DNA of 64,000 nt, from contig CP000070.1 in NCBI GenBank assembly GCA_000002445.1, positions 896,001-960,000 of the forward strand, written 5' to 3'. Of this stretch, positions 1 to 23,800 are shown one piece after another. How positions within the stretch are numbered: the first letter of the stretch is position 1; every line of letters begins with the position of its first letter. The position numbers and the translations under genes were made by a program. The DNA comes from Trypanosoma brucei. Lineage: Eukaryota. The notes under the pieces are model-generated. The model searched no databases and was not told the DNA's origin. It saw only the letters and a list, made by a program, of their open reading frames with translations.

Positions 1-3000
1 TACGAAGGCTGTCTGACTTCGAGAAGACACCGAGGAACGAATAATACGCACAAGCGCCCCAATGTGGCGAAAAGCTACTTCAAGGGGTCTGGTGAAAAAG
101 GTAAGATCTGCACCGATGAGGGAATTTAAAATTCCAAATTTAAGAAACAGAAATTGGGTAAAGGAAAATAAATGCATCAACGACCATCGTCACGTGAAGC
201 AAAACTCGGTAACCCACGGTTCAGTCAACCGATCTGCATTTGGGTGTGTATGGGGGGGGGGGCGCAGCGGTGCCGTGCTGAATAAATGATAAAATCATGT
301 ACACCTAAATCAACGACTCCTTCCATCTGTATCGGCTCCCACAGATCATATGCCATAAGATTCAATTCTGGAAGTGAAAGTCGGTACATGTACTTTCACA
401 CAAAATTCAGATACTGTGAACATTAGCACATGGTTTATGACATAGTTCAGCCAAGCGAAGGGTATCCCGGGGGGTCGAAGTTGCACACTGGACTTCTTTT
501 CTTTTTCCAAAGCAACAAATTCTCCTAAATGTAACTGCGGATACAATGTCCACAGGCTTGAAATTCCAAACACTAAGTGGGAAATGGCAGTAAACCGTTT
601 CAACGACAACTAAGACCGAACCCCCAGAAAACTTTGGCAGAAAACACAACCACTCGTGAAACAAAGAAAACTTGCAAACACAACGGTAAGCTCCGAAAGT
701 CACCGCAATGTTTATTCATGTTTTCCTGTGAGTTTGAAAACCTTTAAAATAGTGCTGTTGAGGACCTTGTGGAGCCCAAACTCCTGAGAGCGAGTCAGTA
801 GTTAAAAAGGGGCGGAAGTTCAATACTTACACAGACGTCCAACGAATTTTCTATCCCGAAAGCACTAGCAACTGAAGTACAGTGTTATGTGAACGGCGAA
901 AGGGGGGGCGTGAACATGGCTTCCCACCTCTTCGCATCCGAAAATCTCTTGCCACACTCCATCAAGTGGGTTAATTTACGTTTTCGGGTGTAACGACACC
1001 CTCGCCGCACCCTTGTACGCTCCAGCGATCGCCATATCCGACACAACCTCCTTAATTTAGCATTAGCACTACCAGGCGATCCCAAAAGTTAGCCACCAGG
1101 ATTAACATTTCCTCGTTGTTTCTTTGAGCCCATCTTTCCATAACCGTTTAACTCCAACGACTGGGCTCGTTGCTGCTTTGTGTGCTGCGACGAATGTATA
1201 ATGAAACGTCGTAACATAGTCACACAGGTGGGAAATGGCTGGCAACTCACCTGACTAAAAACAAGGGGGCGCCGACAAGTTAAATCGCCAACTGAAAAAA
1301 CAACCGGACCCTACGCCACATCGCAGATACACACACCGGTACTCTTGTTCAGTGCATTTGTATTTCAACAGTGCTATGAAGCCGCTCGGCACGGTCCACA
1401 CAAGGCACCTAAAGGGGGTTCAGATCCTCTTTTACTCACTTAAATATGTTAAATAAGGCCATCCCTAGCATAGATCCGCGACCACAGCACCATGCAATGG
1501 AAATAGCAACCCTATCCCCCACTCATCTTCAAGCATGTGCACCAGGTAAGCTCATTAAACTGCAAAGAACTTCACTGAAACGCGGAACGGTAACACCACA
1601 ACCAGTTCTAATAAAAGAAATGTTCAGAGGCACTTCTCAATCCCCCACCTCACCCTCTCCAGAACCAACCCCTCATACCCACCGACTACGAAAGTGAAAA
1701 GTGGCGAAGCGCCCAAAACTGACACGAGGAGTGGGCAGCACGAAGCTACGGTGAGAAGGATCATAAAAGTCAGGCGGGCAACCACGCGTATCCGCTGGGT
1801 CAATATCTAAAAAAAAAAAAAGAGGTTGGCTGACCAACGGGCAGGACGCACCCTGTGCGACAAACAACCTGCAAAGATGGAAAAAAAAAAATGCGCCCCA
1901 CTTCCGAGCGGCAAACCAACCCAAATTTCCATACTCCAAATCGGTATACCCCTGCCCTCTTCCGACCGACGGAAATGTTTTCCCGACGCCGTTAGCAGAA
2001 ACACCGCGAGTCGAAGGACATGAGGGGGCGAACCGGACCGGAACAGGCGCGGAGTCCCCTTCCTTTATAACGGCCGGGCTTTCCGGGTCCAACTGGAGAA
2101 CACCAGTTTACCAGCGAGGAAATCGCAGAAAAAAGGTGCCAGGATTTTGGTGCTCGTCAGGGCAAGGGAGCTTCTCTCCAGTAGAGGTGCCCCGCTCGCT
2201 ACGTCGGCCATCCGCTGGCCTTACTGACCCGAGTAGTTTCTAGTTGGAAGAGCGGGGCGACGCCATCACCTCTCTCGTGGAGGTGGGCTCGCAGGGGGAC
2301 GCCTTATAAAGCCGTGTGTTTCTGGTTGCTAACGGTTGCTTACTCGTAATAACTGCAAAGCCCCGCCATCTTCCGCTGACCGCAGCAGACTTCTACGAAC
2401 CCACACACACACACACAAACCGCCCTCATTACGGGTATTTTCCGAGGCCTCAGGCGCGGGTGGTGGCACGTGCTGGTGTTGTGGTGGACGGTGCCTCGTT
2501 TTCGGGGGAATTGAGCTGAGAGGACGGAGGATTCGCTGGTGCGCCGTGTGGAGGAGAAAGCTGGTGTTTCCGTTCCGTTTGGGGAAGGCCACTTCGTTAC
2601 ATTGTGGTGGGCTGCACTTCCTACATATTCCCTTGGATAGGGAAAGCTTCCAACGGTTGGAATTTGAGGACGGTGCCCGCTAATTAAGTTAGTCAATTTC
2701 GGATTGGCGAGAGATGGCCTGCAAGAGGCTCCTTCTCCTGGTGGTGCCTTAGTGCTAGATTCGCATAAGGGCTGGTGTTGAGTTGAAAAGTGGGTTCTTC
2801 CGCTCCCTCCACACATTCAGTCGTTGGTCCCGCACTGCGGGAGCTAATAAAGGAATTAGACCTTATGAGAACGGCGGAGCGGGAAGCCGCACTGGGAAAC
2901 GGGGTTGGAATGGTTTCTTCCAAAGTTCTGAGAGCCGACAGAAAAAAGACACCATCGTTGAGGGCGGTTGACCCAACACCGAGAGGCAAAAGACAGAACA

Positions 3001-6000
3001 ACGCACCCCACTTCTTTCGCAAACGTTCCCATCTTCGTGCTACTGATTCGATTCGAGTGGTTTGGGACGTCGTTGAGGGCAAGAGCCCATCGCCTTATCA
3101 AGCGTTTTCACCGTAATGGGGTCCAGCGGTCATTGCCCAACGTGAGAGAAGACAGGGGCCTTGTGCTTCACCAGGGCCACTTATAAACAAGTGTATTAGA
3201 CCGCGGCAACACGGAACCAGGCACGGCGTCTAAATGCACCTGAAAAAAAAAAAAGCGAAATTTACACAGTTTTTTTTTTCTACCCACCACCACCTTGATG
3301 CTTTAAGACTTCCGGTGGTTTAACCCTCTTCCGGGGCCTCAGTTTGTCAAACAGTAGGAAAAGGTCGGAAGGAAAGGTGTATTCCACCATTCGCGTGAGG
3401 TTGCCCGGTGCGGGACGTGTGGCTTTGTACTTATCGACGTGGCGCGTCGGGATATGGGGGGCTTTAAAAAAAAATGAAAAGTATATATATCAAGAGTTGC
3501 CCCCCAAACTTTCGGTAACAGAGGCGTATGAGAGAAGAAAACGTCAGCGCGTAGGATAAAGGAGGGGAAAATATGACAGCAAAAAATATGGAGGGAGGCC
3601 ACTGCAGCGACAGGCATCTTCGTGCGAAGTCCGGAACCTCAACCTCGAATTGCAGAAACAGGATGTCAAAATGTGCCCCAACCCGCGCTCTTTTGCACCG
3701 AAGTCGTTTGGATGACGGATATCGACTCATTGTGGGAATGCCGGCAAAAAAATGGGGCAAAAGGAAATGAAGATAAATTTGAATACTACGATAGTGTCCC
3801 GGAAAAGCTATCATAGCACTCTCAGCTCCGGCACGGCCGTGCAAACATTCATGAACATAAGTCCTCGTGCAACGGATTAGGGTGTGCCGCCCAGTAACTG
3901 ACTGCGTTGCATGGTAGCGTACGTGTCGCGCGTGGCCCGCTATCATGCCCGTAAATTTACATCTTGGCGATTGCAAAAAAAAAAAACGGTCATCAGTACC
4001 ATTACGAAGAATAAGTCCGGCTAAACTGAAGAAGATTTCGAAGATTGGGGCAACGAGCCCGGGAGGTTTTACTAGAAGGGTGCTGGGAGGTATTGTGAGG
4101 GTGTCGGTTAGCATCGGCGGCCGCTGCTCGTGAATAAAATCCTATGCCCAATTCGGCGGAAAAGCAATAACGTGGCGTCGGGTCCTGTCGCATTGTACAT
4201 TCATGGGCAGCGGAGAGTTGACAGAAATTTACATCTGCGGAACGCCACTTCCGTGCCTCCGCCCAGGAAATCGATGCATTGCACAGCGTGGGGATCAGCC
4301 GTGTCGTGTTGGAACAGCATTTTCTCTCCCCGTTGGTCGCTGGGCGCACTCTCGTACACTGCCCGCAGCACTACCCGCGCCAAGGAGCTTTTGGAACCGC
4401 AAGGCGCAGGCGTGGGGGGGGGGGCGCACGCCTTTGACGAAAGTGCAAGGACAAGTCAACACACAAAAAAATATAAAACGAACGCAAAGGCATTTCTTTG
4501 CAAATGGACAATCAGGGGTGAGTAGGGGGCGAAGCTGTTACGCTCGCATGGGAGGGGCTGCGGCCGCACCGGGGAATGGGGCCCAGGCACAGGCTCCAGT
4601 TGAAATTCTTCGCCGAAGTGTCGCGACAGCGGATCCACAAGTTTGGGGGGCACTGGTGCCTCGACAGGTCTAAACATTTTCCACAATAGGGGAAGAGGAC
4701 GTGCCAGTTTGGGCTCAATGGAAGTGGGAAGAAGGGGCCGCCCCTCTGGCGAAGTGACTTCGGGGCCGAGATAGCAACCAGAAACCGGGATTTCAACGCG
4801 CATGAAGGAGCGTTGCGGGTCAGATAGCGCTGTGTTGCTAGGGGATGCGGTATTGGGTGGTCAGTGCGATGAAACCTTCAGCATCAGCAGGCAAAGCTGG
4901 AGATCCCCCTCAGCAATTTGTGAGCCACGCGCAGTTTGAGTGAAAACAGGAAAGGGCGGACCCCAAAGACGGGCGACCAAGGAGAGCACCAAACAGATGA
5001 TTTTGGAGTGCAAAACGGGAGAATAGTTTAGCCTCACAGCTGACTAGGCGTTTTTCAGAAGTTGGAAGTAGTGGGCGAGTATGCTAAGGAAAGCGGTCAT
5101 TACTTTCAACACCCCATCCCTCGCTTACCTTCGAAGCTCGTGTGGTCGAAAGTCGATGACTCGCCCGCTGCCACGCGTTCCAGAGCGTTTGAAGAGTTGG
5201 CAGCTTTGATTTCCATTGGGATGGGGAACTGAAAGGTATCACATCACTTGGCTCAGTGTTAATATCTGGCGGTATTACACCTGGTGTGTGTGTGCGTGGA
5301 TGTGAATGTGAAGGGGGGGGGGACCGTCAGGGGAAGAAGTTGCTTTCTTAGCCACGTAAGGGGATCTTAGTACCCCTCCCCGAAGACAAGAAGTTTGTAC
5401 GGGCATGAAGGGCTCTCTTACATGCAACGAGTACTAAGGAGGAAGTTAATTGCGGGGCTTGGAACTGCCTTCGCAATATCTCGAAAAAGTAATGCTGCAC
5501 CCAGTTTAGGGACTCCAGGGACCCAACACCTCATGCAAGTACATGCGTCTCTGTAGTCTGCCTCCTCCCTCGAGCTTTTCTTAGCTGCACCACTCCCTTT
5601 TTTTTAAAAAATCCCGAAACAAAAAAAAAGTAAAGGGATTAAATGTGATTAGCAAGGAAAATAAATGAATGCTTGTTCGGTCGTATTCAATTGAGCTCCA
5701 CAGCAGAAATCACATTGGGACGGCAACGGCGACACCGACCAGCAAGAACGACAACCAAATCCTACCACCTTCGGTCGAGGTATCGGCAGGTTGGATGAAA
5801 TAAACATCTCGAGCAAACACATTGCTGAACCCCCTTCTGTTAATGGTCATCCACGCAAAAGGAGAGCAGGAGAAAGGACAAACAAATGCGTCTGGAGGGA
5901 ACACACTAATGATACGAACCAATGTTCCAAGCGACTAACATCAGCGTTGTTTCTACTCCCTCCTCCTTCCTTCAGCCAAATGTACATGAAACGTAAGCAA

Positions 6001-6879
6001 AGTTGCCAGTTTAGGTGGAATTTATAATTAAACCACCTTGGCATCATGGGCTACCAAACTGTGCGGGTTGAAAAGGAATTGTCTTCAAGGTTTAAAAAAA
6101 AAAAAGATATTGGCATTAGCGGGGGAGCCGATGCGCCACGTCTGCTCTGCGGGCGCCTCCTGCCATGAAACCCCGTTCGGACCCAACACGATGCATCGGT
6201 ACCGCAAGAGCGGAACTGATCCCATCCCCTCCCACGGCAACCGGTGCAATTCCCGCTTAATTCGCCTCCCTGTGCCGTGCCCTACGGTTCGTACAATCCA
6301 GCTGTTCTACGCGGGGAAATAAGTATTCAGACCCGCAGCTCCTTACCCAAACAAAACAGAGAAATGAGAGAGGCGTGACGCGCGATACGCACAAAAAAAA
6401 GAGCTGCAATAATGAGGCAGATAGAAGTTTACAGCCCCACGATGATGTGCAAAAAGAAATGCGAAAGGTAATTGAACTCCATCGCTGTTGCACGCGGGCG
6501 TGCATGTGAATCAAAGTGACATGATCTGGTCAAATTGCCATGACATGCGGGAAAAGCAAACACCGGACGGGTTAATAGGAACACGTAGAACAAATTAACG
6601 GAACAAAAGAGAGCACCGCGACAAAAAACGAGATGATCACATATTTAGTCGACAGGAGTACGGAGCACCAAAAATCACCGCCTCCAATGCGAGGGTGCAC
6701 ATAAGTAAATTAAAACACAATACCGGCCGTTCACTTCCATGAACAAAAGCAAAATGAAAAGAAAAAAGGCAACATTAGGAGTGTCGCCCCCTTGTCCGTA
6801 ATCCGGTGAGAGCGAACTTGGCCCTGGTTTGTGAAACGCAGGCATCGGCAACGGCTGCCCAGTTCATTTCGAGCAACAT

Positions 6880-9360
6880 TTACTTGTATAATCCCCGCAC
6901 GAAATTTTTAACCCCACTCCGAAGTGATTTGGCCGCCTTCCGAACGATTCCTCGTGAATTTCCATTTTCCGACAGCACTGGGTACGTGTAGGGTTCTAAA
7001 GCAACACCGGTCGTTTGAAACTTGAGTATGGCATTCTCTTGTAAAAGGAACGGGGCATCGAGTGCGCGGCAGAAGTCCTTGTCGAACTCGATCACCGCAA
7101 GATGTTCACTATTCTGTTCGGCATTTGTATCCTCCTCCCCGGACGTGTCCTGCTCAAACGTGAGCTGTTTCACGGCACATATAAATTCATCGTGGTACTC
7201 GCCCTCATTGTCTTCGGCAGATATGATGAAAGTCAGCGCATCACTTGAGGTTACGGGAATACCGTCCTCTCGCAATCGGGGTACGACCAAACTGTCCCAT
7301 GCCTTACGCACAGCCTGCTCGATCTCAGAACACGGAACACCTACGGGAATGCCCTTTGCTATAAGGGCGCATCCCCAGTTCTCCACCGGCACAGGGCGTT
7401 TGAGAAAGGCTTGGCTCATAGATGGAAAGTGTATGTCGATGTTGCGCCCGAGCAACAGTTCAATATTCCGAAACTTGCTCTTGTCTTCGAACGCGTTTTC
7501 ATAACGGCGCTGAGTTGCAATCACCATATTGGATGCAGCCGCCTTTAGGCCGCAAATACCCCGCAAAATGTTACTGTGCATGGCGGCCGAGTTGGTGTAA
7601 AGACGCGCAATGGTGTCGCCGTTGTAAACATACAGTTCCGAGAGGGCCCGACCTATGGCGGCGGGGTACAGTGACGGGTTGCACGCCTCCTGCCACGTGG
7701 CCACGGAGTCCCTTCGAGGGGAACCGCTTAACTGCAACATTGCTAAGGTGGTTTCCAGAGGTCTCTCGCCTTCCTGCTCTTCTAGCGGGGGTAGTCGGTT
7801 CTGATCGACGAAGCTGTCGGGCTCCAACCTGAGATAGGCTAACATATTTAATGTTGATTGGAAACAGGTGTAAAAACACCCAATGTTTGTTCGATCCAAT
7901 GAGTCGGCGCAGTTCACTCGCACAAAGCTGGTTTGGCAGGAGTTCCGCGTAACGCCTCCATCAACGCCTATGGTTCCAGCGGTAACCAGTTCGTCTGTAG
8001 AAAATGTGGCGAGCAGGGTTGTCCAAAAGGTTGTAGTGGTGCGGTCAATACCCTGTTCCTTTAACATGTTGAGCCAGTCGACGTGCACGAGATCAAGTTG
8101 AGACCCCGGAAACGCCTGCTGCAGCGCCGCTTGTGATTTCGTGACGGCTTCTGTAAAGTGTTTTGTCAGAGCTTCCTCACTGCTATGATGACTTTGACGA
8201 AGCATATTGACGCAGCGCAACCTGGGGCCCCTGCCGGTGAGCTGTTCTCCCGAGTCGTACCTCATGATGGCAACCAGTTGAGTGAAGACGAAACTGAAGT
8301 ACGAATCGCACCCTCGGAGAACTTCTTCCTTATTTTGACTGAACATCATTGCTGGCTCCGAGATAGTCTTGCTGATTCGTGTTGACCAATGTACGGGAAC
8401 CGTGCCCCTAAGTATTGTGTGTTTGGCAAACTGAATAGGGCCATTGCCACCGCCCTGTCTCCACATCACATACTCGTACACGTGGTCGTTTCCCACCGCA
8501 TTGACTGCGTTCAATCCTCTACCGAAGTACCGGGGGCCTGGATTGAGGTTATTTTGTCTCCCGCACAGCAACACATGAAGGATTGAGCCGTCTTTAAGCA
8601 AAACCTCCTTCTCCGCAGCGAACCCGCGGAGCAACACCGAGCAACAACTTTCAACGCCTGCTGTTATAAACGGTTTTCGTAGCTGCCTTGACCAGTCACT
8701 GTGAAACTGTGGGCCGTTACCGTCTTTTGATGAAACGAACGGAAACGGCCGCCGTAAGTCGCAGTCATCCGAATAGTAATAACCCCCTTCATGGCTATAG
8801 GTCTCAAACTCCTTCAACCTATTTCTATCCCCCGACGTCAGGTACAGGGGTTCCGAACCGGGAATTCCAAACGAAATCCACTCCGTGCCACCAACCCGGA
8901 GGATTGCGCCACCAAATGGCAGCACCGCAGCCTCCTCAACTTTTGTAGCAACAAGGAAATACATCCTGTCGAGACGTAGGCATCCGAACAACGCCGCAAA
9001 CTCCACAAAGGACTCGAATGGACCACACTGTCTGTATGCGTCTCTCAAATTTGGAAACTCTCTATGGCAAAGCTTGTCGTAGCGCTGAATTTCTCCCCTT
9101 TCATCGACCACCAGCGGCACGCAATATGAACCGGCAGACCACTTTTGCCACTCCACCTCGTTTCCCGTTGCGGTTTCAGGTTGTTTGGCCACTGGTGACG
9201 AGGGCTTTTCAAAAAACATTAGCAGTTCCGGCTCTTTGGGAGGAGGCGGTGGCAACGGGCGAGCAAGAACTACAAAAAGTATACTTGTTCCGTCCTTTAC
9301 AGCCACGGCACACCGCTTGCGCGGGCTCTTCTCCACGTACATTTTTTCAGCCCTATTCAA
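6880..9360 (-). CDS. SAC-domain phosphoinositide phosphatase, Fig4/Sac3-like (826 aa)
   Basis: Long minus-strand ORF. It carries SAC catalytic motif CX5R(T/S) as 'RVNCADSLDRTN', plus 'RYFGRGLN' and 'LRGTVPVHWS' blocks that resemble the Sac1/Fig4 blocks RYFSRG and RGSIPVFWSQ. There is no C-terminal TM segment. The size and the catalytic Cys position (about residue 480) fit Fig4 better than Sac1. Confidence 0.7.
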   Translation of the reverse strand: MNRAEKMYVEKSPRKRCAVAVKDGTSILFVVLARPLPPPPPKEPELLMFFEKPSSPVAKQPETATGNEVEWQKWSAGSYCVPLVVDERGEIQRYDKLCHREFPNLRDAYRQCGPFESFVEFAALFGCLRLDRMYFLVATKVEEAAVLPFGGAILRVGGTEWISFGIPGSEPLYLTSGDRNRLKEFETYSHEGGYYYSDDCDLRRPFPFVSSKDGNGPQFHSDWSRQLRKPFITAGVESCCSVLLRGFAAEKEVLLKDGSILHVLLCGRQNNLNPGPRYFGRGLNAVNAVGNDHVYEYVMWRQGGGNGPIQFAKHTILRGTVPVHWSTRISKTISEPAMMFSQNKEEVLRGCDSYFSFVFTQLVAIMRYDSGEQLTGRGPRLRCVNMLRQSHHSSEEALTKHFTEAVTKSQAALQQAFPGSQLDLVHVDWLNMLKEQGIDRTTTTFWTTLLATFSTDELVTAGTIGVDGGVTRNSCQTSFVRVNCADSLDRTNIGCFYTCFQSTLNMLAYLRLEPDSFVDQNRLPPLEEQEGERPLETTLAMLQLSGSPRRDSVATWQEACNPSLYPAAIGRALSELYVYNGDTIARLYTNSAAMHSNILRGICGLKAAASNMVIATQRRYENAFEDKSKFRNIELLLGRNIDIHFPSMSQAFLKRPVPVENWGCALIAKGIPVGVPCSEIEQAVRKAWDSLVVPRLREDGIPVTSSDALTFIISAEDNEGEYHDEFICAVKQLTFEQDTSGEEDTNAEQNSEHLAVIEFDKDFCRALDAPFLLQENAILKFQTTGVALEPYTYPVLSENGNSRGIVRKAAKSLRSGVKNFVRGLYK

Positions 9361-9991
9361 AAACGAGAAAAAAAATCAATAGATATACAAATATATATAA
9401 ATGTGTACGTCTGTGGGTACCAGGGTGGCCAATCAACGCGAGTCTTCTTCCTTGTGTGCAAAGGGCCTTATTTCCACAGTGGTCACCCGACACCAACTTG
9501 GTCGCACTCCTTTCTTCCTTCCGCCTACTCCTCTTACCGAAAACGAAATAAAAATGTAAAAAGGGTAAGCCATACGAAAAATAAAGAACTATTATTGAGG
9601 GGGGGGGGTTGCGTCTGGCACAGCTGACTGACGGCACATACCCTCAATTCCTCCCCCATTTCCTTCTTCTTTCTCCGCTGACAATTCCGAGAGTACCATC
9701 ATTAGTCATATTTGTTTTCTTTATTTTCTTCTCGTTTTTGTTGCTATTTTGAGGACGTTGCGGAAAAATGAAGACCCTAACGGTTAAAAGGGAAGAAAAA
9801 CGATACGATTAACATACACACTTGCACACATGTACATATGTACACATAAAAAAAAAACTAAATGGCTAAATAAATTAAACAGTCTAAAAAAAAAAACACT
9901 GATGCAACAAGACGTTGCGGTGGTGCTTATGCACCGGAGAGAGAAGGATGGGGAAAAGAGAAGACACGGATCGTAGTTAAGGATCAATCTG

Positions 9992-10930
9992 TCACTTTGG
10001 GATGTATTTCTCATTACCCACCGCCTCATCCATCCGCTCCAACCACGGCTTGATTGTTGTTGCTTCGATAATTTCATTGTATAGTCGATGCCCTCTGACG
10101 GACTGCAGCACACCGTGGGTGTCCAAATCCGCGAGATCCGGCTTGGAACCGCCATGAAACTTCTTTTTCCCGTCGAGTAAACCCTCCTTAACAAACCTGT
10201 CAATTTCATTATGGAGTTTCACCTTTGGATCGTCCGTGGGGAGCAAGTCCCCGCTTTTTAGGAGTCGTGGTTTCGTGACGTACTGCGCCACGAGGTACAT
10301 GACCGGTGCACCCACAAGTTTTAGAAAGATCTTGTTCTTATACGGGATAGTTTCGATGTTGTCAATGTACGAGTATGACCCCCATGAGTTTAGGAGGGAT
10401 GAATTGAATTCCAATGTTAAGAGCCGAACCATAGGCCCACGAGCCCACTCACGCCATTTCTTAACTTCAGGGTCCTCCAACTGCTTTCCCATTCCTACGT
10501 GTTTCGCAACGGTACTGACTATTACCTCCGAATCCACGAGGAAAGGACCGTCATCACCCCTTACACAGAACTTCAGCTGTGGCACCTTCTTGTACGCACT
10601 CATGGATATCTCCTTTTTAAACATTGGCTCCACCTCCACACACTCGTATCGGATTTTGTTGTAATCGAGAAAACTCTTCGTGGTGGCACAAAAAGGGCAC
10701 GTTGAGTAGCGGTAGAGAAGAATGGGTGGGCACTTCTTTGGGTCGGTGATATGCGACAGTGCAAACTGCAGCTCCGTCTGGTCCTGCGCAGCGTTGAAAT
10801 CCTCAGCGGTGCAACTCCTGTTTTCCTCCAACCGCCGCTGATATGTCACATAGCCGCCAGCAAAACCCAAACCCGCCAAAGCGCCTGTGGCACACAGAAG
10901 CTTCCGTGACATGGACCCCTTTGTGAACAT
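9992..10930 (-). CDS. Prostaglandin E synthase 2-like protein: N-terminal membrane anchor, glutaredoxin-like CPFC motif and a GST-C-like domain
   Basis: 312-aa ORF. N-terminal hydrophobic stretch 'LLCATGALAGLGFAGGYV', then 'LYRYSTCPFCATTKSFLDY', a thioredoxin-fold CxxC as in mPGES-2, then a GST C-terminal-like region. Confidence 0.55.
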   Translation of the reverse strand: MFTKGSMSRKLLCATGALAGLGFAGGYVTYQRRLEENRSCTAEDFNAAQDQTELQFALSHITDPKKCPPILLYRYSTCPFCATTKSFLDYNKIRYECVEVEPMFKKEISMSAYKKVPQLKFCVRGDDGPFLVDSEVIVSTVAKHVGMGKQLEDPEVKKWREWARGPMVRLLTLEFNSSLLNSWGSYSYIDNIETIPYKNKIFLKLVGAPVMYLVAQYVTKPRLLKSGDLLPTDDPKVKLHNEIDRFVKEGLLDGKKKFHGGSKPDLADLDTHGVLQSVRGHRLYNEIIEATTIKPWLERMDEAVGNEKYIPK

Positions 10931-11345
10931 AACTGTTGTGTCTCTCCCTACCCCTTTATTTGTATTTTTTGTCTAATCTTTTGGTCCTTCGCCCTTCCTG
11001 CTTGAAATGATTGGCCGAATTCTCTGATTCTCCGGAGCTACAAGGGAGCGTAACGGTTGTGAAAGATAACAGGAGGATGTGCATCACGAAAATAGGAATT
11101 AATCCAGAGTAAGAAGAAAAGAAGAAAATGGGGGAATGATAAACCCAACGAACCGGGCAAACGAGGTGACAGCAAAGCCATAGATGGCGCTATACGAGAG
11201 AAAAGGAGTTATAACGATATAAACGTTGTGACCAACGTCGAAAAAGCGTGTGACGTTCATCACCAGATGAACCAACGAGGTTGCGTAACGTGCTTCTGTA
11301 TGCATTGATTTGGCCGTATGTACGTTTATGTGGAGATTATGCTCG

Positions 11346-12794
11346 TCAGGAGCCATAACGCATGGACGGCATCCCGTCTCCCCACGACTTGGTGTGCCGT
11401 GGCCAATCCTCATCATCCGTGTTGTTCAATCCCTTTGCATTAATTCTTGGTTCCTTCCGTAGCTCATTTTCAAGTCCTATCTCCCCAAGTGATGCGTACG
11501 GACGCATCCGGCGCTTTGAGCGAGTCTCCATCTTGCGGTAACGCCGTCCGTATTCATCCTGGTCGCCGTGGACGATGGCATTTACTCTGTTCGCATAAAC
11601 CTTTCGGGAAAGCCTCTTGAAGGGTTTATCGGGGACCTCCAAGGATTGTAGCATCTCGGCAATGCTGCCATCCCCGCTTCTGCCACTTAGCTTCTTGTGC
11701 GCACGCTTCTCCTCCGCGCTCATAAGAAAAGTACGTTCTGCCTCTTCCTTGCTTCGCCTCACACGGGCTCGCGCTAGTTCCTCGGGATCCAACGGCCACT
11801 GTCCCTTGGTATCCAGCCCATTTTCCACATGTTGCGCAATGAACGCGATTCGCTGACTATAGTCTACGACGCGAGAGGGCCATAGTTCGAATGCGTCCGG
11901 TTTCCTCAGGGCCAACCGCCTAAGTATTGATGCACGCTTTTGGCGCTTCCGCTGAAGCCAATGAAAGCGTCGTTTGCCTTGCCGCGCATCACGCAACTCA
12001 GCTAACGTAAGTGTTTCTTCCTTTGCTGCCTTGTACTCCTTTGCCTTTTTCAATCGCTCCCACTCACGCCTTCGTCTATCCAATGGCATGCGCCCTAGGG
12101 TAACGCGAAGGGCCTCATCCTTCTCCGTCAAGCCGAGTGAGCCAAACTTTACTCGGTCTCGTATGCTATAAGGGAGTGCATTCACCCACTCAGGAAAATA
12201 CGTATCGTCATCAAGCATGTAAGCATCAAGGCGTAGGGAAGGATACACGCCGTACTCTTCCACCAACCGTGTTTGATGGCGTTCAATAGTTTCTGCTTCA
12301 TTATCCGCGTGGCGCAGTTCCTTGAACAACCGGTGGAACTCCCTCGCACCGACGGGCTGTCCAAATTTATCCATCATGTGGTTTCGACGGTCAACCTCAT
12401 TTTCCATCAATTCCCGCAACGCGGTAGAGCACTTTTCACCGGGTGTGGGCGAGATGAGCGCCTGTTCATCAATTACTCTTGCGATTTCGTTGGCGTTACC
12501 TCCCAGGGGCTTGTCGCATCCAATATGAAGTTCTCTCTCAGTTACGTAGCCACTCTGTATCTTATCCAACTCTTTTCGCTGCTTCTCTTCACGAAGAAGA
12601 ATATCTTGTTTTTTTGCCACCTTGCTGATGGCTGCTATGCTCTTCTTGTTTCGGTATGCATGTGGCTCCGTGAAGGGATCGCCGCGTTCCCGGTCTGTGA
12701 GGAGCCCTTTGTTGAAATTGACACCACCAGACGTTGAGCGACGCCCGAACGGCAGCCGCTTGAAGGACACGTAACGGAGGGACGAATGCCACAT
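11346..12794 (-). CDS. Hypothetical protein (482 aa), charged K/R/E-rich, N-terminus resembles a mitochondrial presequence
   Basis: Uninterrupted ORF with no low-complexity translation. The N-terminus 'MWHSSLRYVSFKRLPFGRRS' is basic and hydroxylated like a mitochondrial targeting peptide. I recognised no named domain. Confidence 0.5.
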   Translation of the reverse strand: MWHSSLRYVSFKRLPFGRRSTSGGVNFNKGLLTDRERGDPFTEPHAYRNKKSIAAISKVAKKQDILLREEKQRKELDKIQSGYVTERELHIGCDKPLGGNANEIARVIDEQALISPTPGEKCSTALRELMENEVDRRNHMMDKFGQPVGAREFHRLFKELRHADNEAETIERHQTRLVEEYGVYPSLRLDAYMLDDDTYFPEWVNALPYSIRDRVKFGSLGLTEKDEALRVTLGRMPLDRRRREWERLKKAKEYKAAKEETLTLAELRDARQGKRRFHWLQRKRQKRASILRRLALRKPDAFELWPSRVVDYSQRIAFIAQHVENGLDTKGQWPLDPEELARARVRRSKEEAERTFLMSAEEKRAHKKLSGRSGDGSIAEMLQSLEVPDKPFKRLSRKVYANRVNAIVHGDQDEYGRRYRKMETRSKRRMRPYASLGEIGLENELRKEPRINAKGLNNTDDEDWPRHTKSWGDGMPSMRYGS

Positions 12795-13321
12795 GTACGT
12801 TTCCTTTTCTTCCCATACGTGATTAGAGTTATTTTATTAATGTTGTGTGAATATCGACCACCCCGCCGTAGGCGATAAGAATAATGAGAAGTGAAATGGA
12901 GATAAGGAAAGGAGTACAGCGTGCTCTGCTGAAGCGAATTAGAAAAAAAAATGTTGTCAGTAAGACTTGAGGCGTTACACCGTGGCTTGACGCACCGTTC
13001 ATCCTTTTTTTGTTACGTTCACTTGACTTACGTCGTACGGTAGTGGACCCACTTCAAAACGAAAACTGCATGGATATATCAAACATTCGTTTTTCATAAT
13101 CGCGCGAATATACGCGTGCGTTAACTTCGTTTCCCTTCGACTTCCCTTCGATTCATTAAATCTAATTTATATACTCCCCGAGACGGTAGGAGCCGTTCAC
13201 CGCCTTCCTTTCTTTTCCTCGATACCCCAAAATACTCGTACGCACTTCTCTCCCTGTTTTACGGGCATTACAAATGACCGCATCTCACACTCACACTGAT
13301 ACTCATATATGCCATTCCTTA

Positions 13322-13726
13322 CTAATGCAGAGCTTTCGACCTCTTGTATGACATGGCGCGATAAATGTTGTAGCCGTGTACAGCCGCCAAACACACATTG
13401 ACAGCAGCAAGAGACCGACTGCCAGAGTTTTGCGGCTGAATGAGAAGTGCGTACACAAACCACAACAAACCAGTCGTGCAGAGAGCCGCGCTGGAGTTGA
13501 CGTCAATCTTTTCAACCGGTGGGTTCCCAACAAATATACCGTAGAGCGGAACGATGCTCAGCATCCACTTGAACGAGGGCGCTAGATTATAGACAGAATT
13601 CAGGTAAGCAACCACACCATACTTTTCGTACGATTTGAGGCACTGAAACACCCTTCCATTTCCAACATATTTGTGCAGCGGCTTTGGGAACAACTTGGGG
13701 ATGGCTTGTTTTGTGGTTGCAGACAT
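13322..13726 (-). CDS. Mitochondrial pyruvate carrier subunit (MPC family, 134 aa)
   Basis: Small ORF with the MPC/UPF0041 signature 'FVYALLIQPQNSGSRSLAAVNVCLAAVHGYNIYR', which matches the pattern FMRFA..QPRN..L.ACH..N..Q..R. It has 2-3 predicted TM helices. Confidence 0.65.
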   Translation of the reverse strand: MSATTKQAIPKLFPKPLHKYVGNGRVFQCLKSYEKYGVVAYLNSVYNLAPSFKWMLSIVPLYGIFVGNPPVEKIDVNSSAALCTTGLLWFVYALLIQPQNSGSRSLAAVNVCLAAVHGYNIYRAMSYKRSKALH

Positions 13727-13995
13727 GTTTTCTCGTTTGACTCTGCTATTATTTTTCTTCCCCTCTTTCTCCTCCCCCCTTTACACCCCAAAGGACGAGA
13801 ACCGTAGAGGTGAGTGGATTGTTTAAGAGCGGTGAGCGGAAAAAAACAAACACAAGAAATGTCTTCTCCCAAATCATGAAGAAAAAAAAAAGGTGAAAGT
13901 AAAACAATGAAGGGAAGTCGCTTTCCCATTTTCAGGGAAACGATGTTAATAAGTGAAAGCATTTCCAAGTGGCCTCACACTCCGCAAACACACAG

Positions 13996-14050
13996 GCACA
14001 AATATATATATATATATATATATATGCGCATACATATATATATATCTATA
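13996..14050. repeat. (TA)n microsatellite in the 3' flank of the Vac14-like gene
   Basis: 'atatatatatatatatatatatatgcgcatacatatatatatatc'. Confidence 0.9.
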
Positions 14051-14068
14051 TTTGTATGTATCTGTACT

Positions 14069-16144
14069 TTACAAAATGTCGGCATCCCCCATCTGCTGCA
14101 GAAAGAATCTCCGCTCGAACTCTGCAGTGCATCTCTGTGCCTCTTTGCTCTGATTCAAAAGTTGCTCCCAAATGGCGTTGTTGCTGCCCTGTACAGCGTT
14201 TGCTGAATCCTCTCTCTCGAGTCGCGCTAAGGATGGAATTGTTTTGATACGCCGGTATAGAATCATGTATTGCGGAGAGCACTGAGGTAATATCAGCTGC
14301 ATTGCAAAAAGTGTTCTAACAAGCGGAAGACATTTGGATGGCTCCATCAACGCTATTCGCACGTATGAAAGGGCGGGGGTTTCGATAAGCCGGACCAGGC
14401 GCTCCAGTTGCACGAGTGTGTTAGCCGACATCTCACAGGATCCCATGAAACGGACGAGTTGATAAGCGTGCTCGTAGGCACGGGATAAGAAGCAAAGCGA
14501 AAGCGCCGACACGGTGTTATAGCAAAAACAGTTATATAAGCCTAGAAACGCCTCGCGAGCGCGCGCGTCATCGACGCCCCGGTGGAGGACTTCGCGAAGC
14601 GGGAGGAGCTCCCTTGAGGTTAAGAGCATAGTGTTGAGCGTGATTACGAACTTCTCCACGAAACGCTTATCTTTGTGCGAGGAAACAACGTCAGCAAGCT
14701 TGAGACAGAGCTTTTCACATTGACCCAAGTCCTCCTCTTGATACCGGAGTTGCAATTGCTTTATGATTGTTGGCACTTTTGGAAGTAGCACATCCGCCTT
14801 CGTATGGATCAAGTCCACAAGACGAGCTATGAAGTGGTCAAAATGTACCTCACCTGATATCAGACACAATACTTCAATACACTTGTGCACAACGTGGAGG
14901 GAGCGGTCGCACAGCAGCGCTACGGTTGTATCAAAACTCGCATCGAAGCAACACTCCAGGACGTCTGGAGCCGCGTGCAAGACAAGCACTATCCACTCCA
15001 ATGCGGCGACGCGCACCTCCTCGACACTACGATCCGCGAGCTGTTCCAGTACACCCTTCAGGACGGCTTCGTACGGAATAGCTTTTGTGTCGTCACGTGG
15101 TGCCGCAATGAACTGAGTAATCTTCTGGTTAACCTTCTGAGCCGCAAGGCGTGTCTCAAGATCCTTAGACCCTAATTGTGATAGACACGCTTTTACAACG
15201 CCATCAGTGAGATCCAGAAGCTCCAATGCCCCGACGGTGTGCAGCTCTGATATCCACTCCAGCGCACTTTTCTTTGCCAGAGCCGCATTTGCATCCTGCA
15301 CACATTCACATGCTATGGAAACGAGTTTCGCCACCCGTACGTCCACGTGTCGAGTGAACGCATCTTTTGTCTTACCAAGACATTTTTGGAGCAACGACAA
15401 AGCTTCTGAACCGTTACATGTTCCCGAGAGAAGCAACAGGGGTTTTAGCAGCTGCCATAACTGAATAATAAAGTCATCGCCGGGGAGATTAAGAACGTGG
15501 TAAATCCACTCGAGGCACCATTCGACCACAGCTGAGTGAGTGCTGCCTTCATCGCCTGTCGCGCAACAGAAGGGTACCAGGGTTTCGTTGATGAAGGTCA
15601 CAAAAAGCTCCGTCTTGAATGAAAAGTTATCATTCCCCGTAACGAGCTCACGAATGGCGGACGATACCTCCCTTGCGAGCAATACCACACGTTTATCCCC
15701 CTCGCTTATCCCGCAAGCCACTCCACGAAACGTGCGAAGGAAGCAGAAGTTGAGAAGCTGTTGCTGCAGGTTGCGCACAAGTGCATGAGCAGCCTCAAAA
15801 GCTGCCATCCTCACGGACACATCCACATCTGCAACGCTGTCGAATACAATTGTTGCAAGGTCCTCAACCAGCCTCTGTTCATGATTTCTAGGAGGCAGTG
15901 ACGCTATAATCGCCCTAATCGCAATCATGCCACCCCTACGGTACGTCGGGGAAGTGGTCCGAAGTAAACTTCTTTCAATTTCATGCAATTCCTTCGTGGT
16001 TATTTCATATGCCTCTGTGATAGAGCTACTTCGGAATACCGTTGACACCTTTTGTGAGACTTCCTTTGCACCCTTCTGCCGCAGCTCTACCTTCGCGTCT
16101 ACCAAAAGCTTGAACGACCGCGCGGGGACGAAGGACTCCCCCAT
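14069..16144 (-). CDS. HEAT-repeat protein, Vac14-like (scaffold of the PIKfyve/Fab1-Fig4 complex), 691 aa
   Basis: The N-terminal 250 aa show Vac14-like repeat spacing. Blocks 'LRQKGAKEVSQKV', 'YRRGGMIAIRAI', 'DVDVSVRMAAFEAAHALV' and 'DKRVVLLAREVSSAIRELV' are comparable to the Vac14 blocks LYEKRKAAALELEKLV, ARKGGLIGLAA, DQNDQVRYYACESLYNI and NSVRGAAELLDRLIKDIV. The whole protein is an alpha-solenoid. Confidence 0.5.
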   Translation of the reverse strand: MGESFVPARSFKLLVDAKVELRQKGAKEVSQKVSTVFRSSSITEAYEITTKELHEIERSLLRTTSPTYRRGGMIAIRAIIASLPPRNHEQRLVEDLATIVFDSVADVDVSVRMAAFEAAHALVRNLQQQLLNFCFLRTFRGVACGISEGDKRVVLLAREVSSAIRELVTGNDNFSFKTELFVTFINETLVPFCCATGDEGSTHSAVVEWCLEWIYHVLNLPGDDFIIQLWQLLKPLLLLSGTCNGSEALSLLQKCLGKTKDAFTRHVDVRVAKLVSIACECVQDANAALAKKSALEWISELHTVGALELLDLTDGVVKACLSQLGSKDLETRLAAQKVNQKITQFIAAPRDDTKAIPYEAVLKGVLEQLADRSVEEVRVAALEWIVLVLHAAPDVLECCFDASFDTTVALLCDRSLHVVHKCIEVLCLISGEVHFDHFIARLVDLIHTKADVLLPKVPTIIKQLQLRYQEEDLGQCEKLCLKLADVVSSHKDKRFVEKFVITLNTMLLTSRELLPLREVLHRGVDDARAREAFLGLYNCFCYNTVSALSLCFLSRAYEHAYQLVRFMGSCEMSANTLVQLERLVRLIETPALSYVRIALMEPSKCLPLVRTLFAMQLILPQCSPQYMILYRRIKTIPSLARLEREDSANAVQGSNNAIWEQLLNQSKEAQRCTAEFERRFFLQQMGDADIL

Positions 16145-20850: not shown

Positions 20851-23800
20851 TTAGAAACCTCGCCCAACGGATGATTCGCGGTTTGTTGAAGCGCGTCGGG
20901 AAGAATCACGGTTGCCCGAAGGGTGCCCGCTACTCAATCTCGAATCGCGGGATCGCATCTCTAGTTGCTTGATAGTTTCGGTGCGATTGCGGAATGTGGT
21001 GCGCTTTTCGAGTGGGATGTGGTCCTCATTGCTGGCGTTCTTGGTTGGATGCCACGGCTGCCAGTTGCCGGAGGTGAGACTCGCCCCGGGGCTGATTGAA
21101 AAGTTGTGCTCATCCAATCTCTCACTTGGCCGTCGGACAGAACTTCGCGGTGACCTGTTGCGGGTGTTGGCGGCGGCACCGACATCTGAACTTTCAGCCT
21201 CTGAGGTGGAGGGTTTCCCTTCGGCAGCCCGGGTTCGGCCCGCACTGTCGCCGCGGCCACGTACATTTTCTGCGGAGTCCCGCTGTCCGCTGAGTCTACC
21301 CTTCTTCGTTGCTGCCTCGGGTGAAACCGGTTTTTTCCCCGATCCGGAACGCTTCTCGGAGCCGCCTTGAGATGCTGCCTTCTTCTTTGCGCTACGCTCA
21401 TCTCCTTTGCCAATTGGCGGCTTCCGATCTGGGCTCGGTGTCGGTGGTACGTCGAGTTTCACTGTCCGCTGCTCCTTCCCACCTTCCTTCTCAAAGCGCC
21501 CCTCAGAGCCCTTCGAAGACAATCGTTCACCCCCTTCCTCATTACGCTTCGAGAGCGGCTGCTCCTCTGTGGGTTCCTCCGCCTTGGGCTCATCGAGCTC
21601 CTCCAGATCCTCCTCCGCCAATTCCTTTGGAGAACGGGTATATTCATCCTCCTTCACAGGATACCGTTCATCCGCACCAGCAAGTCCCTGGGGTTCATCA
21701 AGCTCCTCCAAACTCTCCTCTTCTGCAGTGCGCTTTGAAAGAGGCCCATCATCTCCATACCCCTCCTCATCGGCCGACTTACCCGCTGCCTCCGTGGGAG
21801 TGCGCTTTTCTTTGCTTTTTTTGGGGGATTTGCGACTTTTCTCCGATCCTTCTTTAGACTTGCCTGTTGTTTCTCTGGGTGATCGCTTCTCCTTTCCCTC
21901 TTTGGGGGACTTGCGGCTCTTTTCCGACTCTTCCTTTGACTTGCCTGTTGTTTCTCTGGGTGATCGCTTCTCCTTTCCCTCTTTCGGGGACTTGCGGCTC
22001 TTTTCCGATTCCTTTGGGGAACGCTTCTTCTTGCGCTCTCCTCCACTGGGATGTTGTTCGTCCTCAGCAGCGTGGCCCTGAGGATCATCGAGTTCCTCGA
22101 GATCTTCATCTTCCTCATTGCGCTTTGAGAGTGGCTTATCCTGTGCGGAGCGGTCGTCCTCTGCGCTCTTAGCCGCAGATTCATTGAACCTATCCGATCC
22201 CCTTTCTTCTTCACTGCGCTTTGAGAGTGGTCTCTCCTGTGCAGAACGGTCGTCCTCCGCGCTCTTCACCTGCTGCTCATCGAGTTCCTCGAGATCTTCA
22301 TTTTCCTCATTGCGCTTTGAAAGTGGCTTATCCTGTGCGGACCGGTCGTCCTCTGCGCTCTTAGCCGCAGATTCATTGAACCTATCCGATCCCCTTTCTT
22401 CTTCACTGCGCTTTGAGAGTGGTCTCTCCTTGGGGGAGCGTCCATCCTCTGCGCTCTTCACCTGTTGCTCATCGAGCTCGTCAAGATATCTGCCCCCCTC
22501 TTCTTCATTACGCTTCGGAGAAGTGCTCTTTGGTGACCGCGATGTCTGCCTGGCAGTGGAACCTTTGCTGTTACTTTTCCTTGAGCTCCTGGGGGAGCGC
22601 TTCTGCGACCGTTGCTTCGAAGGTGATTTTTCCCTTGCGGACCGCCCCTTCTCCGCACTCTTCTCGCGAGAGTCACTTGCATATTCTGAACCATCTTCGT
22701 TCCTCCTTGAAGAGAGCTGGTCACTCCTCATTTCACTCTGTCGTTTGCTCCCTCCCCGGCCAGATCGTCCGCTCGCGCCTCTCCTGGGACTGGAGCCTTC
22801 CTCCTCCTTTTCATTACTTAGCTCCCTCTTGGACTCACCGTCATCCTCCTCAGTGGATCGGATGAGCTTGTAGGAGACAAGGATTTCTCCCCTCTTCACG
22901 GTTTCATTTTGCGGGTCGTGCATTTTTACGGTCAAGGCATCACTGTCGTTGAGCAACTCAAAGCGCCCACTGCTCACAATTCTCTTGTCGTCAAGAACTT
23001 GAACGTCAATGAAGGCTTGCCCACCGTCCATCTCAATGAAGCGCACCTCTTGATTCCAAGTGATGACATGCGCTAAGCCGTCAGCCTCTACCACAGCTGG
23101 CGCAGAGTATGTTGAACCTTCCATATCACAAGCAAAGACGGAAACCTGTCCCTGCGCCAATGGTTCCCCTTCCCGGTCTGTCAGGTTGAGTCCACGAACA
23201 ACCGTCAAGAACAATGATTCACGTGGTCCTGATCCATCTCTCTGTCCAGTACGGTCATTTGACATTTGTGTACCCTGTCTATCTTCCTCATTACTCTTCT
23301 GAATGGTTGCATATGATATGATTCCCCACTCGACCGCGATCTCACCCCAGAGTACATCCTCTTTGACCTTGGATTCGACGAGCAAAACTGCAGAACCCTT
23401 GTGGTAAAGCTTCTCGAAGTCAAGTGGAACAGCACCGACCACAATGAGTTCTTCGTCTTCTTCGTTTTCGACCTCATCCTTGGTAACACAAATGAGAACG
23501 TGACCAAGTTTCTTGGGTGTAATGAGTTGCAGCATCTGCGAACGGTCCTGGGGCAAGTAGGTACATCCTCCCTTTCCGTAATATGGCGAGGACGACATGG
23601 CTCCCTCACTGTTGAATGTGTAGAGACCTGATTCTGAGCAGTTGTCGTCCGTGTCGCGAAGCAGACACAGCACACCACCGTTGTATGGGAGGGCGCCATT
23701 ATCTGTATATTGGAACAAACGGTGGACAACAAAGTTACAGTTAATGGGGCCGCCCTCAAGGTTTTGCTTCAAGGCCGCACCATCTGCATCGTCCTCCCCG

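What the first reader, a model, noticed from the sequence alone, without database searches (positions are those of the whole stretch)
6880..16144. Fig4-like SAC phosphatase and Vac14-like HEAT scaffold encoded about 4.7 kb apart in the same transcription unit
The 826-aa SAC-domain protein has an intact CX5R(T) catalytic motif and a Fig4-like size. The 691-aa HEAT-repeat protein is Vac14-like at its N-terminus. Together these would be two of the three subunits of the PI(3,5)P2-regulating PIKfyve/Fab1-Vac14-Fig4 complex. Trypanosomatid gene order is generally not organised by function, so having physical partners only three genes apart is unexpected. It could reflect conserved synteny, or co-regulation through shared processing context. 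Neither protein has, to my knowledge, a well-characterised kinetoplastid description.
Basis: partly seen in the sequence, partly recalled or inferred. Interest (0 to 1): 0.55.

Follow-up and report, generated by a model that had tools for sequence, protein, structure and literature searches.

The report
Vac14 next to SAC9-type phosphatase
In Trypanosoma brucei a genuine Vac14 scaffold gene lies 4.7 kb from a SAC-domain lipid phosphatase gene, but that phosphatase belongs to the SAC9 family and is not Vac14's partner Fig4, so this is ordinary conserved gene order and not a clustered protein complex.

Summary
Both ORFs are real, conserved genes at the stated coordinates in a T. brucei chromosome 7 unit transcribed on the minus strand. 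The 691-aa protein is a clear Vac14 (Pfam Vac14_Fig4_bd 7.8e-52, Vac14_Fab1_bd 7.7e-8). The SAC protein (820 aa from its ATG; by position Tb927.7.3490, 'SYJ2') has an intact, family-invariant catalytic loop, but it is not Fig4. An exhaustive profile search puts SAC9-family proteins (SAC9_GBDL/WW/SAC9_C architecture) at 250-350 bits, against 79.5 for human Fig4 and 72.7 for yeast Sac1. A reciprocal SAC9-only profile scores it 348 bits (Fig4 179, Sac1 118). Its catalytic loop CADSLDRTN is identical to that of Arabidopsis SAC9 (Fig4 has CVDCLDRT). It is a short SAC9-related form without WW, GBDL or SAC9_C modules. The three genes in between are MPC2, mitoribosome assembly factor mt-LAF21 and a PGES2-like Grx/GST, none related to phosphoinositides. 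The Vac14...SAC linkage holds across Trypanosomatidae (Trypanosoma, Leishmania, Phytomonas). It is absent from Diplonema and from four deeper kinetoplastid-like contigs. The literature points to a separate TbFig4, probably Tb927.11.5490. Verdict: observation confirmed, Vac14 half right, Fig4 half and the 'complex subunits clustered' reading not supported. Minor by-product: SAC9, called plant-specific in the literature, has euglenozoan relatives.

The parts
6880..9342 (-). SAC9-related phosphoinositide phosphatase gene (820 aa from first ATG; by position Tb927.7.3490 = 'SYJ2'); last large gene of the minus-strand array
   Evidence: ORF; ATG start; 100% identical to T. b. equiperdum P0001; Pfam Syja_N 3.1e-31; SAC9-family assignment; gene ID inferred from neighbours
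7399..9012 (-). SAC domain region (aa 111-648) aligned end to end with plant-type and Pharyngomonas SAC9
7885..7911 (-). Catalytic loop CADSLDRTN (C478-N486), the SAC9-type variant of CX5R(T/S)
   Evidence: Translation; eight of nine residues invariant and L482 nearly invariant in 29 sequences; same loop in P0072 and P0059 and in Arabidopsis SAC9, decoded from the C459A primer in PMC9436410; Fig4 has CVDCLDRT and Sac1 has CMDCLDRT
6973..7380 (-). Lineage-specific C-terminal alpha/beta domain (aa ~655-790) with an RRM-like (ferredoxin-like) fold; replaces the WW/GBDL/SAC9_C modules of full-length SAC9
6886..6951 (-). Conserved basic C-terminal helix (aa 798-819, ...KAAKSLRSGVKNFVRGLY); possible amphipathic membrane-binding helix (inference only)
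   Evidence: AF2 helix H798-819; conserved C-terminal consensus in A1
9992..10930 (-). Intervening gene 1: PGES2-like glutaredoxin/GST (Tb927.7.3500), CPFC motif, predicted mitochondrial
   Evidence: Pfam Glutaredoxin 3.9e-8, GST_N_3 8.6e-7; PDB 1z9h prostaglandin E synthase 2 2.2e-31; PMC7046469
11346..12794 (-). Intervening gene 2: mt-LAF21, mitoribosomal large-subunit assembly factor
   Evidence: Full-length match (1-482 of 482, 1084 bits) to PDB 6yxx chain E1 'mt-LAF21'
13322..13726 (-). Intervening gene 3: mitochondrial pyruvate carrier MPC2 (Tb927.7.3520)
   Evidence: Pfam MPC 8.8e-14; same position in L. donovani, T. cruzi and Phytomonas; ID from PMC8092248
14069..16144 (-). Vac14 ortholog (691 aa), HEAT-repeat scaffold of the Fab1/PIKfyve complex
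   Evidence: ORF; Pfam; orthologs named Vac14 or carrying the Vac14 domains in other Trypanosoma species
15716..15943 (-). Vac14_Fab1_bd region (aa 68-143)
   Evidence: PF12755 7.7e-8, 33.3 bits vs cut-off 22.1
14237..14791 (-). Vac14_Fig4_bd region (aa 452-636)
   Evidence: PF11916 7.8e-52, 175.8 bits vs cut-off 25, covering 3-179 of 179 profile positions

Best explanation
The interval holds five unrelated housekeeping genes of one T. brucei chromosome 7 polycistronic unit: Vac14, MPC2, mt-LAF21, a PGES2-like Grx/GST, and a SAC-domain phosphatase. Vac14 is the real scaffold of the PI(3,5)P2-synthesising Fab1 complex. Its expected partners, TbFab1 (Tb927.11.1460) and a separate TbFig4 (probably Tb927.11.5490), are encoded on chromosome 11. 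The SAC gene is a short-form member of the SAC9 clade of phosphoinositide phosphatases. It has a catalytically intact SAC domain with the SAC9-type loop CADSLDRTN. The WW, GBDL and SAC9_C modules of full-length SAC9 are missing, replaced by a small RRM-like alpha/beta domain and a basic C-terminal helix. By analogy with Arabidopsis SAC9 it most likely removes PI(4,5)P2 (and/or PI4P) from endocytic membranes as a soluble, peripherally recruited enzyme (inferred, not shown). The proximity of the two genes is inherited trypanosomatid synteny with no functional meaning. Shown: gene identities, family assignment, extent of synteny. Inferred: substrate, localisation, identity of TbFig4, absence of a Vac14 interaction.
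For: Vac14: both family-specific Pfam domains are above cut-off. SAC9 assignment: (i) In the exhaustive hmmsearch of 1.84 billion representatives, the best non-euglenozoan hits score 250-350 bits and are mostly 1300-1800 aa. Those sampled carry SAC9_GBDL_1st/2nd, most with WW, some with SAC9_C, and the named ones are called SAC9 or SAC9-related in Thecamonas, Anaeramoeba, Riccia, Trichomonas and Diplonema. The same profile scores human Fig4 at 79.5 and yeast Sac1 at 72.7 bits. (ii) Single-sequence phmmer gives 145-224 bits for SAC9s, 39 for Fig4 and 25 for Sac1. (iii) A reciprocal profile built only from non-euglenozoan SAC9 SAC domains gives TbSAC 348, Fig4 179, Sac1 118 bits. (iv) The euglenozoan clade has 99% bootstrap and groups with the SAC9/SAC9-related sequences, away from Fig4 and Sac1. 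(v) Shared signatures are CADSLDRTN, RGT[VI]P and TNSxAMH, and the Arabidopsis SAC9 primer decodes to the same loop. Intervening genes are unrelated to phosphoinositides: MPC2, mt-LAF21, PGES2-like Grx/GST. The rest of the unit is functionally mixed. Synteny: Vac14...SAC is present in L. donovani, T. cruzi and Phytomonas. It is absent within 10 kb in Diplonema and in four deeper contigs (tblastn on L004-L006). Separate Fig4: T. brucei has three SAC genes, and the TbFab1 paper is cited for the essentiality of Tb927.11.5490 (PMC7595295). AtSAC9 function: PMC8717918 and PMC9436410.
Against: I could not retrieve the other two T. brucei SAC proteins. That a better Fig4 ortholog exists therefore rests on a literature table plus my recollection that Gilden et al. 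2017 knocked down 'TbFig4'; that paper is not held. A SAC gene within four positions of Vac14 is unlikely a priori: about 3 x 8 / 9000 = 0.3% for any of three SAC genes (my own estimate), and the linkage is kept across Trypanosomatidae. The protein lacks every SAC9-specific accessory domain, so functional transfer from plant SAC9 is weak. No SAC9 structure is in the PDB, so structure could not discriminate. The Fig4 and Sac1 references used in Python were fragments transcribed from HMMER output, which slightly lowers their scores; the PDB searches with full chains give the same ranking.
Confidence: 0.82

Rival explanations
1. One reading: the SAC protein is the trypanosome Fig4 ortholog, so two subunits of the Fab1-Vac14-Fig4 complex are encoded 4.7 kb apart in one transcription unit.
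For: Human Fig4 is nominally the best PDB sequence hit (7.3e-9 vs 1.9e-6 for Sac1; 79.5 vs 72.7 bits). The protein is 820 aa, soluble, with an intact CX5R(T) motif and no C-terminal TM. Vac14 is genuine and has a strong Fig4-binding domain.
Confidence: 0.03
2. The SAC9-type phosphatase has been recruited in trypanosomatids as an additional or alternative Vac14-associated phosphatase, and the linkage is kept because co-processing in one unit helps matched expression.
For: The linkage is conserved in Trypanosoma, Leishmania and Phytomonas, even though Phytomonas has lost the Grx/GST gene in between. The a priori chance of a SAC gene this close to Vac14 is low (my own estimate, about 0.3%). The lineage-specific C-terminal domain could be a new docking module.
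Against: Most trypanosomatid genes stay syntenic regardless of function (established knowledge), so conservation here is uninformative. Deeper relatives lack the linkage. The three intervening genes and the rest of the unit are functionally unrelated. No interaction data exist. SYJ2 is reported as cytosolic and non-essential, whereas TbFab1 is endosomal/lysosomal and essential.
Confidence: 0.05
3. The SAC protein is the Sac1 ortholog (ER/Golgi PI4P phosphatase).
Against: There is no C-terminal transmembrane segment; the model ends in an alpha/beta domain and a basic helix. Sequence scores to Sac1 are the lowest of the families compared. The catalytic loop is not the Sac1 type.
Confidence: 0.01

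Closest known systems
Arabidopsis SAC9 and full-length SAC9 of other eukaryotes (Pfam Syja_N + WW + SAC9_GBDL_1st/2nd + SAC9_C)
   Same: The SAC domain aligns end to end (28-31% identity over about 570-590 columns). The catalytic loop CADSLDRTN is identical, and RGT[VI]P and TNSxAMH signatures are shared. Profile scores are by far the highest in both directions.
   Different: It is half the length (820 vs 1300-1800 aa). It has no WW domain at the post-catalytic insert (aa ~504-560 is a low-confidence loop). It has no GBDL or SAC9_C domains and instead carries an RRM-like domain plus a basic helix. Its substrate and localisation have not been tested.
SAC9-related short proteins of Trichomonas and relatives (Syja_N only, ~1100 aa)
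   Same: They have a SAC9-type SAC domain without recognisable SAC9 accessory domains, and a similar score against the SAC9 profile (345 vs 348 bits).
   Different: They form a separate clade in the tree (96% bootstrap), with different lengths and C-terminal regions.
Fig4 / Sac3 (PI(3,5)P2 5-phosphatase, Vac14-bound)
   Same: Soluble protein with an N-terminal SAC domain, a CX5R(T) motif, and a non-catalytic C-terminal extension of similar overall size.
   Different: Only 39-80 bits of similarity, no better than Sac1. The loop is CADSLDRT, not CVDCLDRT. There is no evidence of Vac14 binding. A different T. brucei gene is linked to the Fab1/Fig4 study.
Vac14 / ArPIKfyve
   Same: The 691-aa protein has both Vac14-specific domains in the canonical order, within a HEAT solenoid.
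   Different: It is somewhat shorter than the ~780-880 aa I recall for the human and yeast proteins (my own knowledge). It has no phmmer-level match to any PDB chain. Oligomerisation and partner binding are untested.

Membership tests
Vac14 | C-terminal Fig4-binding domain (PF11916) | tested here: met
   7.8e-52, 175.8 bits vs cut-off 25, profile positions 3-179 of 179, aa 452-636
Vac14 | N-terminal Fab1-binding HEAT region (PF12755) | tested here: met
   7.7e-8, 33.3 bits vs cut-off 22.1, aa 68-143
Vac14 | Pentameric scaffold that binds Fab1 and Fig4 | not testable with these tools
   Needs biochemistry or multimer modelling
Fig4/Sac3 | SAC domain with intact CX5R(T/S) | tested here: met
   C478..R484-T485; this feature is shared by all active SAC families, so it does not discriminate
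Fig4/Sac3 | Closest sequence relatives are Fig4 orthologs | tested here: not met
   Fig4 scores 79.5 bits against 250-350 for SAC9 with the same profile; 39 vs 145-224 with the single sequence; reciprocal SAC9 profile gives 348 (Tb) vs 179 (Fig4)
Fig4/Sac3 | Fig4-type catalytic loop C-[VI]-D-C-L-D-R-T | tested here: not met
   The loop is CADSLDRT; human Fig4 has CVDCLDRT
Fig4/Sac3 | Binds Vac14; PI(3,5)P2 5-phosphatase activity | not testable with these tools
   No interaction or lipid data; structure prediction reports no inter-chain confidence
Sac1 | C-terminal transmembrane anchor | tested here: not met
   The AF2 model ends in an alpha/beta domain and a basic helix, and the C-terminal sequence has no hydrophobic TM stretch
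Sac1 | Closest sequence relatives are Sac1 orthologs | tested here: not met
   72.7 bits, 25 bits, 118 bits on the SAC9 profile
Synaptojanin/Inp5x (current database name) | SAC domain followed by an inositol 5-phosphatase (Exo_endo_phos) domain | tested here: not met
   Syja_N is the only Pfam hit; the 'synaptojanin (N-terminal domain)' label refers to the SAC domain only
SAC9 clade | SAC domain closest to SAC9 orthologs, in both search directions | tested here: met
SAC9 clade | SAC9-type catalytic loop CADSLDRTN | tested here: met
   Identical in T. brucei, P0072 and P0059 and AtSAC9 (primer in PMC9436410)
SAC9 clade | WW domain directly after the SAC domain | tested here: not met
   No WW hit; the equivalent segment, aa 504-560, is a low-pLDDT loop. 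Pharyngomonas and Anaeramoeba SAC9 also lack a WW hit, so this feature is not universal
SAC9 clade | SAC9_GBDL_1st, SAC9_GBDL_2nd and SAC9_C domains | tested here: not met
   No hits at E<=1. I therefore file it as SAC9-related (short form), not as a full SAC9 ortholog
SAC9 clade | Restricts PI(4,5)P2 at endocytic membranes in vivo | not testable with these tools
   Known for AtSAC9 only

The most novel reading that the evidence does not exclude
In trypanosomatids the short SAC9-type phosphatase, and not only the canonical Fig4, docks on Vac14 through its lineage-specific C-terminal domain. On that reading the conserved Vac14...SAC linkage reflects a rewired PI(3,5)P2/PI(4,5)P2 control module in the endosomal and flagellar-pocket system.
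Probability: 0.05. Interest if true: 0.6.

Novelty: new member of a known kind. Interest (0 to 1): 0.2.

Why it matters
For the finding as posed, it matters little. There is no clustering of PIKfyve-complex subunits, so nothing here challenges the view that trypanosomatid gene order is not organised by function. Two modest annotation gains follow. (1) The gene annotated as 'HEAT repeat-containing protein' in several Trypanosoma species is an unambiguous Vac14, giving the characterised TbFab1 kinase a scaffold candidate that I did not find studied in trypanosomes. (2) Tb927.7.3490, labelled 'synaptojanin (N-terminal domain)', 'SYJ2' or 'IP/PI 5-phosphatase', is a short SAC9-type enzyme. SAC9 is described in the plant literature as plant-specific (PMC9436410). 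Here, full-length SAC9 architectures appear in Heterolobosea, apusomonads, Anaeramoeba and a haptophyte-like lineage, and a truncated form runs throughout Euglenozoa. This suggests an ancient eukaryotic family and gives a tractable non-plant system for studying SAC9 catalysis.

Full report
OBSERVATION. The window is Trypanosoma brucei. The SAC protein is 100% identical to a T. b. equiperdum entry, and the 482-aa neighbour matches PDB 6yxx chain E1 from the T. brucei mitoribosome over its full length. The 826-aa figure includes six residues upstream of the first ATG that arise from a TTG start under the bacterial code. The real product is 820 aa (6880..9342). The CX5R(T) motif is present as CADSLDRTN at 7885..7911; eight of its nine residues are invariant and L482 nearly invariant across 29 family members. 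The gap between the ORFs is 4.7 kb and contains three genes: a Grx/GST-like gene (9992..10930), a 482-aa gene (11346..12794), and a small MPC gene (13322..13726). Every large non-nested ORF from 6.9 kb to 64 kb is on the minus strand. This is consistent with one polycistronic unit in which the SAC gene is the last large gene.

VAC14. The 691-aa protein matches Vac14_Fig4_bd (7.8e-52, full profile length, aa 452-636) and Vac14_Fab1_bd (7.7e-8, aa 68-143). Both are above Pfam's curated cut-offs and lie in the canonical order. Orthologs in other Trypanosoma species carry the same domains, and some are named Vac14.

The decisive result came from an exhaustive hmmsearch of 1.84 billion representatives with the family profile. 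After the euglenozoan orthologs, the best hits (250-350 bits) are mostly proteins of 1300-1800 aa. Those I checked carry SAC9_GBDL_1st and SAC9_GBDL_2nd, most carry WW, and some carry SAC9_C. The named ones are called SAC9 or SAC9-related in Thecamonas, Anaeramoeba and Riccia, with unnamed equivalents in Pharyngomonas, a Diacronema-like haptophyte and Spirogloea. A second tier (160-190 bits, about 1100 aa, Syja_N only) includes Trichomonas 'SAC9-related family'. None of the top-150 hits that I checked is a Fig4 or Sac1.

Three further tests agree. With the single T. brucei sequence, SAC9 proteins score 145-224 bits, a human Fig4 fragment 39 and a yeast Sac1 fragment 25. A profile built only from non-euglenozoan SAC9 SAC domains scores the T. 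brucei protein at 348 bits, the same as Trichomonas SAC9-related (345), against 179 for Fig4 and 118 for Sac1. A neighbour-joining tree recovers a euglenozoan clade (99% bootstrap) among the SAC9 and SAC9-related sequences, separated from Fig4 and Sac1 by a long branch. With only two outgroup sequences, that tree is supportive rather than decisive.

Pairwise alignments run through the whole SAC domain (28-31% identity over about 570-590 columns) and reveal shared signatures. The catalytic loop is NCADSLDRTN, where Fig4 has NCVDCLDRTN and Sac1 has NCMDCLDRTN. The others are RGT[VI]P and TNSxAMH. The C459A mutagenesis primer published for Arabidopsis SAC9 decodes to RFN(C>A)ADSLDRTN, the same loop (PMC9436410).

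GENE IDENTITY AND THE REAL FIG4. Tb927.7.3520 is TbMPC2 (PMC8092248). Tb927.7.3500 is an uncharacterised GST/glutaredoxin with a CxxC motif (PMC7046469), and the 312-aa ORF here has CPFC. By position the SAC gene is therefore Tb927.7.3490 and Vac14 is about Tb927.7.3530 (inference from the numbering). PMC7595295 lists three SAC genes in T. brucei. SYJ1 is Tb927.9.10640. SYJ2 is Tb927.7.3490, cytosolic and non-essential in bloodstream forms. SYJ3 is Tb927.11.5490, essential, and the table cites the TbFab1 paper of Gilden et al. 2017 for it. The same table gives TbFab1 as Tb927.11.1460, endosomal/lysosomal and essential. I recall that the Gilden abstract reports knockdown of a 'TbFig4'. I could not read the paper. 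The mapping TbFig4 = Tb927.11.5490 is therefore a reasonable inference and not a demonstrated fact.

SYNTENY AND CHANCE. The order Vac14, MPC, ~480-aa gene, Grx/GST, SAC is found in L. donovani and T. cruzi. Phytomonas has it too, minus the Grx/GST gene. Equal contig lengths for both proteins suggest linkage in T. grayi, T. conorhini and T. theileri as well. In two deeper kinetoplastid-like contigs the Grx gene still lies near SAC, but no Vac14 is present within 10 kb (tblastn). A JGI contig, an ENA contig and Diplonema papillatum show neither neighbour. The juxtaposition is thus trypanosomatid-wide and, as far as sampled, no older. Because most trypanosomatid genes remain syntenic whatever their function (established knowledge), this conservation says nothing about selection on the pair.

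The three intervening genes are MPC2, the mitoribosome assembly factor mt-LAF21 and a prostaglandin-E-synthase-2-like Grx/GST. The rest of the unit encodes a WD40 protein, two kinases, a p24/GOLD protein, a class I tRNA synthetase and a DnaJ-TPR protein. A rough a priori chance that one of three SAC genes lies within four positions of Vac14 is about 0.3% (my own estimate from about 9000 genes). This probability is post hoc, because any plausible functional pairing in the window could have been flagged.

MECHANISM. Vac14 most likely scaffolds TbFab1 and the separate Fig4 ortholog on late endosomes and the lysosome (inference from the conserved domains and the yeast and human complex). The SAC9-type enzyme is most likely a soluble, peripherally recruited phosphoinositide phosphatase. 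By analogy with AtSAC9, whose loss raises PI(4,5)P2, lowers PI4P and impairs endocytosis and which needs its catalytic cysteine, it would clear PI(4,5)P2 from internalised membrane. This is inference from family membership. The accessory domains that localise plant SAC9 are absent, so targeting must differ.

VERDICT. The finding is ordinary, with small annotation gains: a Vac14 label, and a SAC9-type reassignment of 'SYJ2' that undercuts the 'plant-specific' description of SAC9.

Noticed in passing
window 6880-9342 (-); P0059-P0084: SAC9 is called 'a plant-specific protein' in PMC9436410. Yet full-length SAC9 architectures occur in Pharyngomonas, Thecamonas, Anaeramoeba and a Diacronema-like haptophyte, and a truncated form occurs throughout Euglenozoa (kinetoplastids, Papus, Entosiphon, Diplonema). 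The family looks ancient in eukaryotes.
   Followed up: partly
window 9992-13726 (-): All three genes between Vac14 and SAC encode mitochondrial or mitochondrial-type proteins: PGES2-like Grx/GST Tb927.7.3500, mt-LAF21 (matches PDB 6yxx_E1 over its full length) and MPC2 Tb927.7.3520. Probably coincidence.
   Followed up: partly
L004 5570-6547 and L005 3265-4242: The Grx-like gene stays within one or two genes of the SAC gene in two deep kinetoplastid-like contigs that lack Vac14 nearby. The Grx-SAC adjacency is therefore older than the Vac14-SAC adjacency. Phytomonas (L008) has lost the Grx/GST gene from this block.
   Followed up: partly
L003 ~960-3000: In T. cruzi assembly GCA_003177095.1 the Vac14 coding sequence is split over several reading frames (tblastn fragments), whereas it is intact in GCA_013358655.1 (L002). 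This could be assembly indels or a strain-specific pseudogene.
   Followed up: no
window 1-6880: Downstream of the SAC gene there is no ORF of 220 aa or more, no tRNA, no Rfam hit and no Pfam hit on the small ORFs, and GC skew turns positive at 2-6 kb. This probably marks the end of the polycistronic unit. In T. cruzi the equivalent side has opposite-strand genes followed by an RHS gene, and in L. donovani the block lies near a contig end.
   Followed up: partly
window 13900-14060: A TA/CA-rich simple-repeat tract (it reads as 'YIYIYIY' in translation) lies just downstream of the Vac14 stop codon. This is typical trypanosomatid intergenic sequence.
   Followed up: no
[not shown]
   Followed up: partly
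window 20851-24576, 31142-33346, 42793-44061, 52081-53136, 59510-61459, 62559-63992 (-): Six sizeable ORFs (351-1241 aa) in the same unit have no Pfam domain at E<=1e-3 or stricter. They are probably kinetoplastid-specific proteins.
   Followed up: no
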